Source: a virus (lineage: Duplodnaviria > Caudoviricetes). Taken from it: a DNA stretch of 64,000 bases. Below, piece by piece: positions 2,868 through 59,146 of the stretch (position 1 is its first letter; every line of letters begins with the position of its first letter). The position numbers and the translations under genes are program-made. Under the pieces are notes generated by a model. The model had not been told where the DNA came from and did no database searches. It saw only the letters and a list, made by a program, of their open reading frames with translations. The stretch is from positions 42,599 through 106,598 of IMG/VR virus record IMGVR_UViG_3300028888_001547; one strand, given 5' to 3'.

Positions 2868-5800
2868 TCAACTATAAGATTGTCTGAATTTAGTTATTAT
2901 GTGTGATATAGTAAGGAATTCTGTTGGATTTGTACTCTTTATATTTACTCTTAGCCATTTACCGCGTATTCTGTTTCCATAACCATCTCCTGTGATATAT
3001 CTAGGTATATTATATATCACATTACCTTCCCTATCAGTATACGGTTCCATATTGCCGCTGAACTCTTTATTTATAATATCGCTTTCAAACGACATTACCG
3101 CTCCTTCTAAGAATGCACTATGATCTACTTGTGTGAAAGCATCTCGTTTAATTGGAATAAACTGCTGAGAATCAAATACTTTTGTTACAGATGCCATTGG
3201 GTTTACAATAAAACTAACAGCCAATGGATATAAATACGAAGTAGCTTGTTCTAGATAGTTATGCTTTTTTATATCAAGTTTTTGATGTTCGTTGTCTACA
3301 GTCAAACCATACAGGTGATTCTTTATATATAACATAAAATCATAACGTCTTGTATATATAGAAGTACCGATATTATACTTTATGTTTAGCACCATCTAGT
3401 CCTAACCTAAACATTTACACAACACTTCGTCGTTTTGTAAATCGTAATCTACATGCGGAACATCTGCCGTTATGTATCGATTTACTAAGTTTTGAATATT
3501 TAGTTGTTCTCCTACATTTATTGCCCTACTTTCTGCAAGTGCCGCAATAGCTTTATTATTTATATCTACCCAGAACACTCCTCCTTCAGTTGTTCTAGCG
3601 CAGAAATCATAAAGACGCATTCCATATCTCGTACTTATATAATCATAACGTGACAATATGCCTGCCTGTCCCAACATTATAGTGTTGCTGTTCTGATCAT
3701 TCACAAGAGAACGTTCATTAACGCTGAACCGTCCGCATGCGTGATCTTGCCAGTAATACAACATGTTCTTATCTGTGAGTAGGTTTGTTATTTGTCCGTA
3801 TTTACTATCTACATCAATAAAAGATGCTGCTTTGAATATAAGGAAGTTATCTATAAACTCACCATTTGTCTTCAAATCAGAGTAATAAGTACGCTACTTA
3901 AAACTATTTGTTTCGTTTTTGTCTGTGCTTATTAATGTAAACACATCATTAGAAGCGTCGTTATCAGAATATATCATGTTATACTGATGAACAGGGCGGT
4001 CTTGTGTAGTAACGCCATCTATTTGCCCAGGTTCATATAACAGATTTTCGCTTTGTGTGTTCATAAGATTCATTCCATAATCAAAATAAGTATTTACTTT
4101 TGATTCAAGAGGAATGTAATTTACAACCTACGTGGACTGGAGTGTATCCATAGAGTTAAAATCATATGCTTTATACATAGTTCCCAACTCATGCGGAGTA
4201 ATATAAACATCTCCATCAAATACAGTTAGTGTTGTATTATCTTTTGGCGTACCATTTGCATTATACGATACATTGAAATAGTTTCCAAACCCGTAATATT
4301 GAGTAAATTCATCAGATTGAACATCACTTGTCTTTGCTTCGTGAGTTATATTGCATATAGAAGTATAGAAGGCACTAGAATTCAATGGGAATAAACCGGT
4401 TTCGTTCTCAGTAGTAAGTAAGAAACAAGATGGTCCCGCACCTATATATCCTATTTTTACAGCCTGATTATCTTGTGTCATTGGATATACAGCAGCTTGC
4501 AACCAGTTTCTATATCTTTTTGTTCTACCGTGCATCTCTGCTGAATTTGGACCATCCCCGTCACTTGTAGTATAGTCCATATTAGCCTGACTTTCTTCTC
4601 CAGGCCTTAAATCATATTTTGCGAATGAGACCCAATTGTTGTACACATAGGAGTCAATATTTGTAGTAAAACTCTTATATTTCTTTATGGCTGTATATAT
4701 ATCTTCATCTTCGTTTCGTTGTACTTCACTAAATGCTGAACTCCATTCAGGTATCTTTACATCTTTTATTTGATTTACGTCCTATGTACCAAAACCAGAG
4801 AACGATCCACCATTTGTTTTATAGAAGTTAAATATCCAATGTCTTGCCTATTTTTTGTCAGACGAAAGCTTTTCTACATAAAGTCTATTTATTCCTATTG
4901 TACCTTCTTGCGAATCATAATCAACAGGAGGTATTCTAGTGTTTACTGTTAATACTGTAGGCTAATATTGAAGATCTACTTTAATTACTATAGATCTATT
5001 TAACGTTGCCGCTTCGTTTATAAAATCGGTTACATTAGAATGTGATATTATGTTGTCAGAAATGCTCATGACAGGACCAGCTACTAAACTATCTGGCTCA
5101 AGTCTCATAAATTGCACGTCTGTTACGTTTGGATCGTCTACACTAAGTAGTATACTTTGAGCAGATGTACTCAATGGGCCAACTGCGAACATGTTTCCTT
5201 TACCCTAAACAACTCCAACATTATATGTTCTTGTCGTTTCTTCTGGAGTATAATACGAAGAATTTGCACTTGCTGTCATTGAGTTTGGAAGTGCTCCGTC
5301 ATATATAGTATCTTTTGTGCTGTTTGTATATTTAGCAAAAACAGAAGATACGTACAGCATTTCTTCTATATTTGTATCAGACGTATTTACTCTGGACAGA
5401 ACATCATTTCTTCTAAAGTCTATTTCAGATGAAAAAATCTAATATAATTTGTGGTTTCGAGTTCTCGCTCTAAGATCTGCATAATATCCAAGGTCCTGGC
5501 CATTTGGTGCAGATACCGTTTTACTATAATAATACGACGGAAAAATATACAACCCGTTAACAGACATAAATCCGCTAGGATAGAAAGGAGATTTTTTTGT
5601 TACACTATCCTATGCATCAGATATTTCTTGTATATTTGTATCAAGTATTGCTTGTGATATTGGTCTAGCTAAAGCAACCTATAGTAATGTTTTTTGATAT
5701 ACTTCTGAAGAAGATCTACGAATAACCTAGCAACCTACAATACTACTTATAGCATCTGGATCACCAGTAAGCGTCGGAAGTTGTATTTTTACTCCAATAG

Positions 5801-51510: not shown

Positions 51511-51569
51511 ATACTGTCCCAGTGTAGACGCTGGCTGATGAGTCTTGGAAGATTAAGACGAAACAGTAT
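51511..51569 (+). ncRNA. Hammerhead ribozyme (type III)
   Basis: ATACTG-TC^-CCAGTG-TAGA-CGCTGG-CTGATGA-GTCTT-GGAAGATT-AAGAC-GAAA-CAGTAT: full core and three stems; cleavage predicted after C51518. Confidence 0.9.
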
Positions 51570-52429: not shown

Positions 52430-53650
52430 CTACACCCGACATGTCCAAAGTAGTCGGCACGGATAATTACGTGAATGGTGATGGAAGGCAGGCTTCTTGT
52501 CTTTAGAATAAAGCAGCAATGCTATAAAGTGCACTCCTTTAGAAAGAGTGTGCGCAGATATGTGCTTTAGCACAGACTCTGTTCATAAGAAAGCTATACT
52601 ATATAAGTATATCTTGGGATACTCGGGCAGAGTTGAAGAGGTATACGGTGGCTCTTGCTAAGCTACCTTGGGTGGTAACACCGACAATATATAGTATAAT
52701 CATACTCCAGAGGATTGCCAGTCCAATAGAGTGTGTAATCTATTAGTAATATCCTATTCATCAACCAATGGTGAACTCCAGCTGGTTACTTGAGTCAGAA
52801 ATGGTAGGATAAATAAAACTATTAGAAATGAGTAGTCTTGGCAGACGAAAATAGGAAGGTGTTGCACCTGGGCTGGTCAAAAGCCAGTATGGTGACAAGC
52901 ATGGCCACATCTTCCAAGCAGAGCTCTAGTTATCTATTTTTAGGCGAAAGCCCCACAAAAAGTATTTAACAAAAAGCAAAAGTGCTATGCACTCTCGTAT
53001 GAAAATACGGTTGTTCTGCTGTAATACACAGATTGTGTGAGTACCGCAAGGAAAGCACAAAGGTGAAATCAAACTTATCTGGTTTCAGGATGGTATCCTG
53101 TTAAGCTACCAAAGCGCCATGAGTGAGAAATTAATCTACATAATGCGAGAGTAGTTCTTGCGACTTCTTTCTAGAAGCCGTCCGTATGCTATCTACCTGA
53201 TAAAAACAGGTGTGTGGATACTCTAAAAGGAGTGGAAAAGATAGTACAAAAGGTCAACACTCAGCCTTTTATTTAACGAAATAATTGATTTACACCCCAA
53301 TATAGCCTAATTGTAGTAGTAGGGAAGAGCCGTGAGATTAACCTTCCAAGACTACAAACCTTCAGACAGCACGTGATGCTGTTATTTCATAGCTTCCGAG
53401 ATAAGCACGGAACATATGATAAAAGACAGGTGGCAAGAAATGCACGGATTAGCTTGAGAGTGTAGCGAGGCATTAAGGGTACAGCCAAACTCTCCGTCAA
53501 AGTGATGCACGCCACTGCATCCACGTTCTTGGGAAGGCAAACGCACAGGTATAACATGTAGATATCGAAAAGGATTGCTCGCCACCAATAGGTGATAGAG
53601 CGCGAAGAGAGTCCTTGCGATTCGAATTGTATGCCTGTGCATTTTTATTT
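52430..53650 (+). ncRNA. Candidate large structured ncRNA(s)
   Basis: ~1.2 kb without a credible ORF; many stems and GNRA-type tetraloops on the plus strand. Confidence 0.5.
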
Positions 53651-53677
53651 GAATCAATCACCAAAATAACTAAATAT

Positions 53678-53872
53678 ATGAGGAGAAGATTCAATCCAAA
53701 CGCAGTTGCCTCATCAACAGGTGACTACACTCGTGTATCACACGACCGTAAGGCTGGTACAACTGGCCGTAGAGTTAAGAATGTGTTCGCAAAATGCGGG
53801 CTAATAAAAATAGCTGTCACGCCACGACAAGCTATGATGCTCGCATCTTATCAGCGCATCGAAAGACTCTAA
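53678..53872 (+). CDS. Small basic early protein (64 aa)
   Basis: Likely ATG 53678 (MRRRFNPN). Confidence 0.55.
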   Translation: MRRRFNPNAVASSTGDYTRVSHDRKAGTTGRRVKNVFAKCGLIKIAVTPRQAMMLASYQRIERL

Positions 53873-54214: not shown

Positions 54215-54268
54215 AATGTAAAGTCCCACCGCGTTAAAGAGTGGGACGGAGTGATGCCTAGACTCCAC

Positions 54269-54296
54269 GGCCCGCAATTCCAAGGCGGGCCTTTTT
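54269..54296 (+). terminator. Rho-independent terminator
   Basis: GGCCCGC-N9-GCGGGCC-TTTTT. Confidence 0.7.
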
Positions 54297-54318
54297 ATTG
54301 GAATCAATTCTTACAATT

Positions 54319-54771
54319 ATGTGTTTATATACAAAACAAATATGCCCTATAAAGGCACGAAAAACAATTGTATGTTACAAGGTCGTAAAACGACGCAAAC
54401 ATGCAACAGGAGAAAAGAAGTATAGGACACCATGCATGAAAAAACCACTAAAACTTCATGGACTAATATATCCATCACCTATTACTTCATGGGATAAAAT
54501 CCATGAAAAAGATATATACATAGGAGAAGGTAAATGGATTAATGTTCGTGAAGTAAATGGAGGATGGATTCATGCATGTAATACACTCGATGATGCTAAG
54601 TTGTGGTTAAAAAAGAATTATCATCTGTTTAATCATAATAAAAAGCAACCATTTCATTGGGCTATAATCGAGTGTGTCGTATATAAAGGTGTTCTATATT
54701 ATCGTTCGTTTGACAAGCATACTCTGTGTGCTAAAGAACTCTTCACAAGAAAAATAGTGTTACAAGGTTAA
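54319..54771 (+). CDS. Early hypothetical protein (150 aa)
   Basis: MCLY..A...IVCYKV..GGWIHA..IIECV..KG.LYY pattern. Confidence 0.65.
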   Translation: MCLYTKQICPIKARKTIVCYKVVKRRKHATGEKKYRTPCMKKPLKLHGLIYPSPITSWDKIHEKDIYIGEGKWINVREVNGGWIHACNTLDDAKLWLKKNYHLFNHNKKQPFHWAIIECVVYKGVLYYRSFDKHTLCAKELFTRKIVLQG

Positions 54772-54808
54772 CACTATAACTTGAAATCAATTCTAAAACA
54801 ACATATTT

Positions 54809-54985
54809 ATGGCAAAAGGTATTAAAGGTGAGGATATACTACCTCATACGTATGTAAAACAGTTCAAACAGAAATTACAGCTGTTTGTGGACATGTGTAA
54901 TGTCGCACTATCGTGCGATGAAGACTCTGAAAGGGCCAATGGCTTCATCAAGAAAATAATGGAAGATCATAATTTCAAACCATGA
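54809..54985 (+). CDS. Small early protein (58 aa)
   Basis: ATG 54809 after a leader nearly identical to that of 53942. Confidence 0.55.
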   Translation: MAKGIKGEDILPHTYVKQFKQKLQLFVDMCNVALSCDEDSERANGFIKKIMEDHNFKP

Positions 54986-55320
54986 AGAAGTCAATTATCT
55001 CTCTCATTCCAACAGCAGCAGGTCTGTTATTAGGATGCTATGTTATGTATGTTTTAAGTGCTTTAATTCAATAGAATATGACGTATAAGAAACAAACAAT
55101 CAATGTAGCAGGAACAGAGTATGTCAGCGAGGTAACTCGTTGGCCAGGTCACAAATATATCAATAACATTCCAGTATGGAAAGGATAATGGTAGATGTTG
55201 TGGCAAATGGCATAGCATGTGTAATCATGCTAGTCGTAATAATAGTCATATGGACAGCATGCCATGTAGACGATTCTTCTAACACCTAAGCAAGTGTCTA
55301 AACTGCTACACTAGAGTAGC

Positions 55321-55527
55321 ACTACGTGTAAATGTAGCCTGATTAACGAATAATTTGTACGTACTTCGTATAATCAGTTGGTTCCAAGCCCATACTAATC
55401 AATGACAAGGTGTGTGAAACAGAATAAATATTTAAACAACACAAATATCAGTTCTAAACTGTGTAGAATTAATACGCGCAAAGTTTGTGTATGGCACCTC
55501 GAGAAGAATACAGTAGGAACACGTGGT
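55321..55527 (+). ncRNA. Twister-like ribozyme with large insertion
   Basis: P1 ACTACGTG/CACGTGGT, P2 TGTA/TACA, P3 CTGATTA/TAATCAG, P4 TGG/CCA, T1 TTCC/GGAA, T2 GC/GC; one extra nt on each side of L1. Confidence 0.6.
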
Positions 55528-55572
55528 AAAGGGGAGGAGGGACTTCACAGTCTGCCTCCCCAATTATAATTA

Positions 55573-55639
55573 AACACATTTAATGCGACCAATAATGACG
55601 GTGACAAGTCCGAAGAGAGAACGCAGAGTCAAATGTGTT
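55573..55639 (+). ncRNA. Twister ribozyme (type P1)
   Basis: P1 AACACATT/AATGTGTT, UAA, P2 TGCG/CGCA, P4 CGG/CCG, T1 TGAC/GTCA, T2 AC/GT, conserved GA. Confidence 0.8.
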
Positions 55640-56163
55640 AGCTATGCAGGTATACTCAACAGCATAGCGCTAAACGAACATTGAGTTACACATATTTATG
55701 TACGCTTACATTTATGTGGCAAATCAGAAGCCCGCGGTAATGGGCGTGAAATTCTGACATGTGAATAGACGAACTAGATTCACAAAATGACTTTAAACAG
55801 TGGAATAGTAACTGTTGCTCCGTAGTGAGGTAAGCCCCAAGAGGTGTAACTACCAAAGTGGATGGAAGTCGGTCACAGTCCACCAGATACGCAGAAGCCT
55901 AGGCGTATCAATCGGCAGCTTGAGTTGTACATAGAGCTGCACACGCGTGTGGAGGGCATAATCTAATCAATGGATATGCTCTCCCTTTTATTGAATCATT
56001 TAGTTGTTTTTAGGTGAATAGATTGTTTGTCAGGAACAATCACAACGGTGAGAGAGTATATCAGTACGCAATTTTACTCATATTCAAAGAACTCATGATG
56101 ATTATGCTACAGCGGTAGCACTCTCACCGTTTTTAATAGAAATCAATTCTAAAATTATATAAT

Positions 56164-58796: not shown

Positions 58797-59146
58797 TTTT
58801 GACGGTGCAAATCTAGAAAATGTGCAATATACTAGTGTTGCACAGCACCAACCGCAACACCACCAAGAATGACAGTGAAAGTCTGAAGAGAGAAGAAATG
58901 TGTTGCAAAAGTAATTGAATGGCCTACTACTCCATTTAGCAACAGTACGAGACGGAACGAAAGTATACCTCGGTTGTAAGTAGTGAATATGTCGTGGTCA
59001 GAGGAGACTTAAAAAGAAGCTGACACTGGAGAGTATATACTCAACACAAGGGGAGACGGCGGAGATAGCCGACCTTGTTGCCTGAAAAAATGGCTAGTTG
59101 CCACAGGAACTGGGAAGCCTGTGTGCGAGAACAGAAAAGAACCCAG

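What the first reader, a model, noticed from the sequence alone, without database searches (positions are those of the whole stretch)
55321..55639. Tandem twister ribozymes, the first carrying a ~115-nt insert
Seen: a canonical twister at 55573-55639, preceded by a second twister fold (55321-55527) with all stems and both pseudoknots but a large structured insertion (55393-55508) and an extra nucleotide on each L1 strand. Inference: two cleavages would excise a ~250-nt RNA with 5'-OH and cyclic-phosphate ends, which RtcB-type ligases could circularise. Alternatively the insert may be an allosteric domain.
Basis: partly seen in the sequence, partly recalled or inferred. Interest (0 to 1): 0.72.

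Follow-up and report, generated by a model that had tools for sequence, protein, structure and literature searches.

The report
Two tandem twister ribozymes, crAss-like phage
A gene-free stretch of a rumen crAss-like phage carries two self-cutting twister RNAs 251 bases apart: the second is well supported and heads a ~410-base non-coding RNA, while the first is a one-off variant with a 116-base extra arm that sits where a sister phage has a different self-cutting RNA, so both most likely trim a long transcript into separate pieces.

Summary
Observation confirmed; interpretation only partly supported.

- **Downstream twister (twD, 55573-55639).** It is a real but divergent P3-less type-P1 twister. 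It scores 29.6 bits in Rfam, below the gathering score. Intact homologues in relatives show compensated P1, P2, T1 and T2.
- **Upstream twister (twU, 55321-55527).** It has every twister helix and both pseudoknots, with perfect pairing. A descriptor that allows its oddities found nothing in 7.7 Mb of shuffles, and only one true twister in 2.6 Mb of other phage DNA.
- **The insert (55393-55508).** It lies at the optional P5 site and closes with a 6-bp helix. It folds no better than shuffles, matches no RNA family and has no homologue anywhere searched.
- **The "extra" nucleotides.** The extra 5' L1 nucleotide is a known active variant (A*AA), so the cut falls at A55330/A55331. Only U55514 is unprecedented, so twU activity is uncertain.
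- **Context.** twU directly follows a conserved 3' pseudoknot. A sister phage (flanking protein 94% identical) has a hammerhead in that position. twD is the 5' domain of a ~410-nt terminator-ended RNA.
- **Reading.** This is a transcript-processing cassette, and the 251-nt piece is probably a by-product.
- **Unsupported ideas.** Neither circularisation nor allostery has any support.

Other notes of this scan described the knot-ribozyme module and neighbouring RNAs in this genome. None described these twisters.

The parts
55282..55307 (+). Conserved H-type pseudoknot that overlaps the stop codon (55287-55289) of the upstream 37-codon ORF. It is the presumed 3' cap of the upstream message.
Evidence: Alignment with the window's other copy (~51476) and with L003 shows compensated stems. 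The pattern occurs in more than 120 viral contigs.
55321..55527 (+). Upstream twister (twU), type P1. Its parts are P1 55321-29/55519-27, N-1 A55330, AA 55331-32, P2 55333-36/55509-12, T2 55337-38 with 55388-89, P3 55339-77, P4 55379-81/55390-92, L4 55382-89, and T1 55383-85 with 55516-18. The predicted cut is A55330/A55331.
   Evidence: Parts table, strict descriptor test and constrained fold. Rfam gives only 14.9 bits and aligns it to a poor nearby 3' half.
55393..55508 (+). 116-nt insert at the optional P5 site. It comprises a 15-nt J4/5, a 6-bp closing helix (55408-13/55494-99), a branched AU-rich interior (GC 0.33) and a 9-nt J5/2.
   Evidence: One search gives the P5 helix a probability of about 0.86 when the twister helices are enforced. 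One search gives z -0.07 for the insert alone. It has no second copy in the genome and no homologue elsewhere.
55514..55514 (+). Extra U between the presumed catalytic G55513 and A55515 in the 3' L1 strand (G-U-A where the consensus has G-A). This is the one deviation at a highly conserved site.
   Evidence: compared with the consensus lines and the table in PMC8501958.
55531..55561 (+). GC-rich hairpin between the two ribozymes (-20.6 kcal/mol). No U-tract follows it.
   Evidence: It was not called as a terminator.
55573..55639 (+). Downstream twister (twD), type P1 without P3. Its parts are P1 55573-80/55632-39, N-1 U55581, P2 UGCG/CGCA, L4 UGACAAGU, T1 GAC:GUC and T2 GU:AC. The cut is U55581/A55582.
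   Evidence: Rfam 29.6 bits. Intact homologues are L206 (41.5 bits) and L229 (33.1 bits), with compensated P1, P2 and T2.
55582..55995 (+). The ~410-nt non-coding RNA that begins with twD and ends at a terminator-like hairpin (about 55951-55985) followed by UUUUAUUG.
   Evidence: Fold. The first ~120 nt are homologous to L212. The region has no convincing ORF.

Best explanation
This is a transcript-processing cassette in the small-gene region of a TAG-recoded, crAss-like rumen phage.

Proposed mechanism:
1. One + strand transcript runs from the small genes (54241-55289) through the gene-free stretch.
2. twU cuts at A55330/A55331, 23 nt after a conserved pseudoknot. The upstream message is therefore released with the knot at its 3' end.
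3. twD cuts at U55581/A55582. Almost all of twD stays on the 3' product, so it becomes the compact 5'-OH head of a ~410-nt non-coding RNA that ends at a terminator-like hairpin.
4. The 251-nt piece between the cuts is most likely a by-product. It contains the twU body with its 116-nt P5 arm and a GC hairpin.

What is shown: the two folds, their positions, covariation among clade twisters, the hammerhead at the same site in a sister phage, and homology of the RNA that starts with twD.

What is inferred: cleavage activity (especially for twU), co-transcription of the whole stretch, and the protective roles of the knot and of the 5'-OH twister head.
For: - **Fold statistics and parts.**
- **Clade twisters covary.** T1 is GAC:GUC, UCC:GGA, CCU:AGG or CAC:GUG; T2 is GC:GC or GU:AC; P4 is CGG/CCG, UGG/CCA or GAG/CUC.
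- **Ribozyme swap at one site.** In L003, whose flanking protein is 94% identical, the same knot is followed by a hammerhead (37.1 bits) exactly where twU sits. Homology resumes only at window 55921. The window's other knot copy is also followed by a hammerhead (43.4 bits).
- **twD-type elements head gene-free RNAs in relatives.** These are L206, L229 and L212.
- **Other tandem pairs in the clade.** L208 has a RAGATH-1 hammerhead (75.4 bits) followed by a twister. L212 has a hammerhead (45.5 bits) followed by a decayed twister.
- **Known twister variation.** N*AA sites with any N are active and leave a 5'-AA end (PMC8501958). P5 is an optional stem (PMC5408937).
- **Known clustering.** Self-cleaving ribozymes are known to cluster in bacteria and phages (PMC6765202).
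Against: - No RNA data are available, so neither cleavage nor co-transcription is shown.
- twU is a singleton with no homologue, so it has no covariation of its own.
- U55514 interrupts the conserved G-A of the active-site strand.
- Both elements score below Rfam's gathering score.
- Of 125 knot copies examined in other contigs, only L003's is followed by a ribozyme, so the knot-ribozyme link is not general.
- Two ribozymes are more than a simple cut requires.
Confidence: 0.6

Rival explanations
1. Only twD is active. twU is a recently disabled twister, broken by the 116-nt insertion and/or the extra U55514. It persists as a folded but non-catalytic element, like the decayed twisters seen in relatives.
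For: Decay of twisters into non-catalytic folds is common in this clade: L212, L219, the second L206 copy, and window 58856-58904. U55514 lies in a strand that is more than 97% conserved. twU has no homologue and scores 14.9 bits in Rfam.
Against: The clade's relics have lost the UAA site, the AAG of L4 and T1. twU keeps all of these, with perfect P1, P2, P4, T1 and T2. It also occupies the position where relatives have an intact hammerhead.
Confidence: 0.3
2. Both twisters cut in order to make the 251-nt RNA (55331-55581) as a functional product. This would be a small RNA built on the twister scaffold with the P5 arm as its payload, possibly circularised by a host RtcB ligase.
For: The end chemistry follows from twister cleavage. 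The piece is compactly folded and ends in a -20.6 kcal/mol hairpin. Tandem ribozyme pairs make circular RNAs in retrozymes and are proposed to do so in totiviruses (PMC13725137). A Bacteroides control genome has RtcB.
Against: The insert is not conserved anywhere and is no more stable than shuffles. The two ribozymes are not repeats, and no ribozyme helix juxtaposes the ends. The phage has no ligase gene. In the relatives L208 and L212, the inter-ribozyme pieces are unrelated in sequence.
Confidence: 0.12
3. The insert is a sensor (allosteric) domain that switches twU on or off, by ligand or protein binding or by competing with the nearby pseudo-3' half at 55404-55415.
For: The P5 closing helix (55408-13) overlaps an alternative, poor 3' half that Rfam's model prefers. 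Two mutually exclusive folds are therefore conceivable.
Against: No aptamer or riboswitch family matches the insert. It shows no conservation and no excess stability. The nearby half has an all-wobble P1, a mismatch in P2 and no catalytic G, which is the quality expected by chance.
Confidence: 0.05
4. twU is a chance resemblance, and the stretch 55321-55527 is spacer or encodes the 55-codon ORF 55402-55569.
For: Rfam gives only 14.9 bits (E 0.17 per genome). An ORF of 55 codons exists there.
Against: The strict descriptor found 0 hits in 7.68 Mb of shuffles. twU lies on the same strand and within 250 nt of twD. The ORF has no family match, and ORFs of that size are common in this non-coding region.
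Confidence: 0.03

Closest known systems
Type-P1 twister ribozyme (Rfam RF03160; Roth et al. 2014, as summarised in PMC5408937)
   Same: Both elements have P1-L1-P2, a P4 with the L4 loop U-NNN-AAG-N, both pseudoknots, an N*AA cut site, and the optional stems P3 and P5.
   Different: Both score below the gathering score. twD lacks P3, has long linkers (CAAUAAUGA and AAGAGAGAA) and has non-consensus but compensated T1 and T2. twU has a 116-nt P5 domain and an extra U in the 3' L1 strand.
T-variant twisters at the 5' end of Perere-3 retrotransposons (PMC8501958)
   Same: They use an A*AA cut site that leaves a 5'-AA end. The ribozyme stays on the downstream RNA and defines its 5' end.
   Different: They are eukaryotic retrotransposons rather than phage elements, and they have no P5 expansion and no tandem partner.
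Clustering of self-cleaving ribozymes in bacterial and phage DNA (reviewed in PMC6765202)
   Same: Different or identical ribozyme classes lie close together near phage genes, and twister and hammerhead share genomic contexts.
   Different: Here the context is resolved: the ribozymes follow a 3' knot or leader hairpin and head a non-coding RNA, and the ribozyme class differs at one orthologous site in sister phages.
HDV-like theta ribozymes next to tRNAs in recoded gut phages (PMC10879173; title and abstract only)
   Same: These are small ribozymes used for RNA processing in TAG-recoded gut phages.
   Different: They belong to a different ribozyme class and their partner is a tRNA rather than a long non-coding RNA.
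Tandem ribozyme pairs that release circular RNAs (retrozymes, PMC4918200; totiviruses, PMC13725137)
   Same: Two ribozymes lie 186-399 nt apart and bracket a small RNA.
   Different: In those cases the pair are repeats or the ends are brought together, and circles are documented or modelled. Here the two twisters differ in sequence, and nothing indicates a circle.

Membership tests
Twister ribozyme (twD, 55573-55639) | P1, P2 and P4 helices with an N*AA site one nucleotide 3' of P1 | tested here: met
   P1 is 8 bp, the site is U*AA, P2 is UGCG/CGCA and P4 is CGG/CCG. See also the Rfam alignment.
Twister ribozyme (twD, 55573-55639) | Pseudoknots T1 (3 bp) and T2 (2 bp) between L4 and L1/J2-3, supported by covariation | tested here: met
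   T1 is GAC:GUC and T2 is GU:AC. The homologues L206 and L229 have T2 GC:GC, and other clade twisters have CCU:AGG and CAC:GUG.
Twister ribozyme (twD, 55573-55639) | Score at or above Rfam's gathering score (67.2 bits) | tested here: not met
   29.6 bits. All clade twisters fall below it, at 28-50 bits.
Twister ribozyme (twD, 55573-55639) | Self-cleavage at the predicted site | not testable with these tools
   Needs in vitro transcription or RNA end mapping.
Twister ribozyme (twU, 55321-55527) | P1, P2 and P4 helices, an N*AA site, and the L4 loop U-NNN-AAG-N | tested here: met
   P1 is 9 bp, the site is A*AA, P2 is UGUA/UACA, P4 is UGG/CCA and L4 is UUCCAAGC.
Twister ribozyme (twU, 55321-55527) | Pseudoknots T1 and T2 | tested here: met
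   T1 is UCC:GGA, compensated relative to the consensus CCC:GGG, and T2 is GC:GC. twU has no homologues, so this rests on complementarity, not on covariation of this element itself.
Twister ribozyme (twU, 55321-55527) | Conserved G-A in the 3' L1 strand next to T1 (the active-site guanine) | tested here: inconclusive
   The sequence is G55513-U55514-A55515. Both conserved bases are present but are separated by an extra U. No precedent was found in the sequences seen here.
Twister ribozyme (twU, 55321-55527) | Score at or above Rfam's gathering score | tested here: not met
   14.9 bits, with the 3' half misaligned because of the insert.
Ribozyme-bracketed circular RNA (retrozyme or viroid-like) | The flanking ribozymes are repeats of one unit, so that the ends meet in a ribozyme helix | tested here: not met
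   twU and twD differ in P1, P2, P4 and T1. No direct repeat flanks the piece.
Ribozyme-bracketed circular RNA (retrozyme or viroid-like) | A circular RNA species is detected | not testable with these tools
   No transcriptome data are available here.
Allosteric ribozyme (aptamer-ribozyme fusion) | A recognisable or conserved ligand-binding domain | tested here: not met
   There is no riboswitch or aptamer match in 55312-55535, even at E up to 10. The insert is neither conserved nor unusually stable.

The most novel reading that the evidence does not exclude
The two twisters act together as a cutter pair that releases a discrete 251-nt small RNA (55331-55581). Its body would be the folded twister scaffold displaying a 116-nt P5 arm. 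With 5'-OH and cyclic-phosphate ends it would be a substrate for host RtcB, so it could be a phage-made circular or end-protected small RNA. Ribozyme-made circular RNAs are so far known from eukaryotic elements and RNA viruses.
Probability: 0.12. Interest if true: 0.8.

Novelty: new variant of a known kind. Interest (0 to 1): 0.5.

Why it matters
What self-cleaving ribozymes do in bacteria and phages is still largely unknown (PMC6765202). This locus gives a concrete, testable picture.

- **Defined position.** The ribozymes sit between a message with a structured 3' end and a long non-coding RNA.
- **Class swap.** Two sister phages use different ribozyme classes (twister and hammerhead) at the same site. 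That argues that the cut itself is the selected function.
- **Decay after replacement.** In relatives that have an upstream hammerhead, the downstream twister has decayed into a non-catalytic fold. This suggests how ribozymes turn over during evolution.
- **A natural test of the fold's tolerance.** twU combines a 116-nt P5 arm with an extra active-site-strand nucleotide, so it tests how much the twister fold can tolerate.

Tried and rejected
- **Searches for twU homologues.** A core pattern gave 0 hits in viral contigs. A looser pattern gave 8 chance hits in metagenome contigs, none of them related. BLAST of the whole gene-free stretch against 30 related records found no match to twU or the insert except a 27-nt chance hit in L215. 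A distant search of the phage collection found nothing.
- **Knot survey.** Of 125 knot copies in other contigs, only L003's is followed by a ribozyme signature. The knot does not predict a ribozyme.
- **Clade-specific covariance model, intended as an independent test of twU.** MAFFT misaligned the variable P3 and J4/2 regions. A single-sequence model (R1) was too narrow: it missed the true twisters L205 and L207. Its failure to find twU therefore carries no weight.
- **Insert as coding sequence.** The 55-codon ORF matches no PHROG or Pfam family.
- **Insert as a repeat or mobile element.** It is single-copy in the genome.
- **A phage-encoded ligase for the circle idea.** No RtcB or RNA_ligase domain was found.
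- **Inter-twister hairpin as a terminator.** No U-tract follows it, and the scan did not call it.

Full report
**Setting.** The window is the last 64 kb of a 106.6-kb IMG/VR virus record. It encodes a crAss-type major head protein and portal. Many ORFs need TAG read as a sense codon, which agrees with earlier notes that this is a TAG-recoded rumen crAss-like phage. The finding lies in a gene-free stretch, 55290-56163, between small + strand genes of unknown function. The neighbourhood is rich in non-coding RNA: a hammerhead at 51511, a divergent GOLLD RNA at about 52854, tRNAs and a tmRNA-like gene.

**Downstream twister (twD, 55573-55639).**
- Rfam's twister-P1 model matches at 29.6 bits against a gathering score of 67.2. 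The E-value is 4e-4 in a 1-kb search and 0.026 in the whole window.
- The parts are: P1 8 bp, site U*AA, P2 UGCG/CGCA, no P3, P4 CGG/CCG, L4 UGACAAGU, T1 GAC:GUC and T2 GU:AC.
- Four of 18 complete relatives carry twister-P1 matches of 28-50 bits.
- L206 (41.5 bits) and L229 (33.1 bits) are close homologues of twD. They share its T1 but have T2 GC:GC. L229 also has a fully compensated P1.
- Other clade twisters have T1 CCU:AGG (L205) or CAC:GUG (L207).
- This covariation makes twD a genuine twister, although it is too divergent for routine annotation.

**Upstream twister (twU, 55321-55527).**
- Every helix pairs perfectly: P1 9 bp, P2 UGUA/UACA, a 38-nt P3 hairpin and P4 UGG/CCA.
- L4 is UUCCAAGC. 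T1 is UCC:GGA, compensated relative to the consensus CCC:GGG, and T2 is GC:GC.
- Rfam gives only 14.9 bits because it cannot bridge the insert. It aligns a poor nearby 3' half instead (55404-55415: all-wobble P1, a P2 mismatch, no catalytic G).
- I tested chance with a descriptor that includes all the relaxations twU needs: 0 or 1 extra nucleotide in each L1 strand and up to 140 nt at the P5 site. It hit only twU and twD in the window. It hit one site in 2.64 Mb of other phage loci, the true twister L205. It hit nothing in 7.68 Mb of shuffled sequence. The descriptor was written after seeing the candidate, but the background was searched with the same freedom.

**The two "extra" nucleotides.**
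- Published work shows that natural twisters with N*AA sites cleave whatever N is. The "3A" variants cut so as to leave a 5'-AA end (PMC8501958).
- In twU, U55329 pairs with A55519 as the last P1 pair. The 5' strand is therefore a normal A*AA site, with the cut at A55330/A55331.
- The real anomaly is U55514, between the presumed catalytic G55513 and A55515. This strand is among the most conserved in the class (PMC5408937).
- I found no precedent for it, so twU's activity cannot be decided here. I put it at a little over one half.

**The insert (55393-55508).**
- It lies between P4 and the 3' strand of P2. By my recollection of the published consensus, that is the site of the optional stem P5. 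The review confirms that P5 is optional and that a type-P5 permutation exists.
- With the twister helices enforced, the fold is only 2.2 kcal/mol above the free MFE, before counting the pseudoknots. A 6-bp closing helix (55408-13/55494-99) forms with a probability of about 0.86.
- Beyond that, nothing marks the insert as functional:
  - it is AU-rich (GC 0.33);
  - it folds no better than shuffles (z -0.07);
  - it matches no Rfam family;
  - it is single-copy in the genome;
  - it has no homologue in 30 related records, in viral contigs or in metagenome contigs;
  - the 55-codon ORF inside it has no family match.

**Context that explains the pair.**
- *A knot followed by a ribozyme.* Just upstream (55282-55307) is a small pseudoknot that overlaps the stop codon of the preceding ORF. 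The window has a second copy at about 51476, followed by a hammerhead. The stems of the copies are compensated.
- *A different ribozyme in the same position.* In the sister phage L003, whose flanking protein is 94% identical, the same knot is followed by a hammerhead (37.1 bits) exactly where twU sits. The next 500-600 nt are unrelated, and homology resumes at window 55921. Two ribozyme classes at one orthologous site argue that the cut is the selected function.
- *twD as the head of a longer RNA.* The sequence from 55582 to a terminator-like hairpin plus U-run at about 55951-55992 is about 410 nt. Its first ~120 nt are homologous to L212. In L206, L229 and L212 the same element follows a gene and a leader hairpin, and heads 140-680 nt of gene-free sequence.
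- *Other tandem pairs in the clade.* L208 has a RAGATH-1 hammerhead (75.4 bits, above its gathering score) 70 nt before a weak twister. L212 has a hammerhead (45.5 bits) directly before a twister-derived element. That element keeps P2, P4, T2 and the linker, but has lost the UAA site, the AAG of L4 and T1.

**Mechanism proposed.**
1. A + strand transcript is cut twice.
2. twU frees the upstream message 23 nt after its knot.
3. twD creates the 5'-OH end of the non-coding RNA and stays on it as a compact 5' domain.
4. The 251-nt middle piece is probably a by-product.

The cleavage itself, the continuity of the transcript, and the protective roles of the knot and the twister head are inferences.

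- *Excision* of about 250 nt follows if both ribozymes cut.
- *Circularisation* has no support. The two twisters are not repeats, no ribozyme helix brings the ends together, and the phage has no RtcB or Rnl gene. A Bacteroides control genome does have RtcB. Circles from tandem ribozymes are known elsewhere.
- *Allostery* has no support either.

**Novelty.** Twisters, the optional P5 stem, A*AA sites and the clustering of ribozymes near phage genes are all known. What is new:
- a twister with a 116-nt P5 domain and an extra L1 nucleotide;
- a twister-twister pair in a crAss-like phage;
- a resolved context, with a hammerhead and a twister occupying the same site in sister phages.

I searched the held literature for ribozymes in crAss-like phages and found no paper on this.

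Noticed in passing
L212 1488-1545; L219 (- strand) 1483-1547; L206 1945-2000: These are twister-derived elements that keep P2, P4 (covarying), T2 and the AAGAGAGAA linker. They have lost the UAA site, the AAG of L4 and T1, so they are probably non-catalytic folds kept as the 5' domain of a non-coding RNA. In L212 the element directly follows an intact hammerhead.
   Followed up: partly
window 58856-58904 (and L003 6328-6376): This is a further copy of the ACCAA.AAUGAC-hairpin-GAAGAGAGAA motif, found with the single-sequence model (30.6 and 28.0 bits). It lacks P2 and the cut site. It lies in a gene-free stretch about 250 nt before tRNA-Gln.
   Followed up: no
L206 1462-1490; L212 1400-1428; L208 1466-1498; L229 672-703: A leader hairpin with the conserved loop GGUUCGUGA(G/A)AAUA lies just upstream of the ribozyme in four relatives. 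It is a second kind of pre-ribozyme element alongside the knot. The coordinates are approximate and were read by eye.
   Followed up: no
L208 1350-1430 and 1501-1552: A RAGATH-1 hammerhead (75.4 bits, above its gathering score) lies 70 nt before a weak twister (28.1 bits) whose T1 is imperfect. This is a mixed-class tandem pair.
   Followed up: partly
L003 ~3370-3400; L206 ~1715-1748; L212 ~1650-1683: A hairpin is shared by the ribozyme-led RNAs of three relatives. The stem covaries (UUGUGCG/CGCUCAA against UUGUGGG/CCCUCAA) and the loop UAAGAUAAACU is conserved. It is absent from the window.
   Followed up: partly
window 55404-55415: This is a poor alternative 3' half for twU (GACA-AGG-UGUGU) that Rfam's model prefers. 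It overlaps the 5' strand of the P5 closing helix, so two exclusive folds are conceivable. Its quality is what chance would give.
   Followed up: partly
L229 ~458-650 and window 53615-53872: By eye, the gene before L229's twister looks homologous to the window ORF next to the GOLLD RNA (shared motifs such as RRRF.PNAVASS and TPRQAMMLA). This would link these small genes with ribozyme or non-coding RNA cassettes.
   Followed up: no
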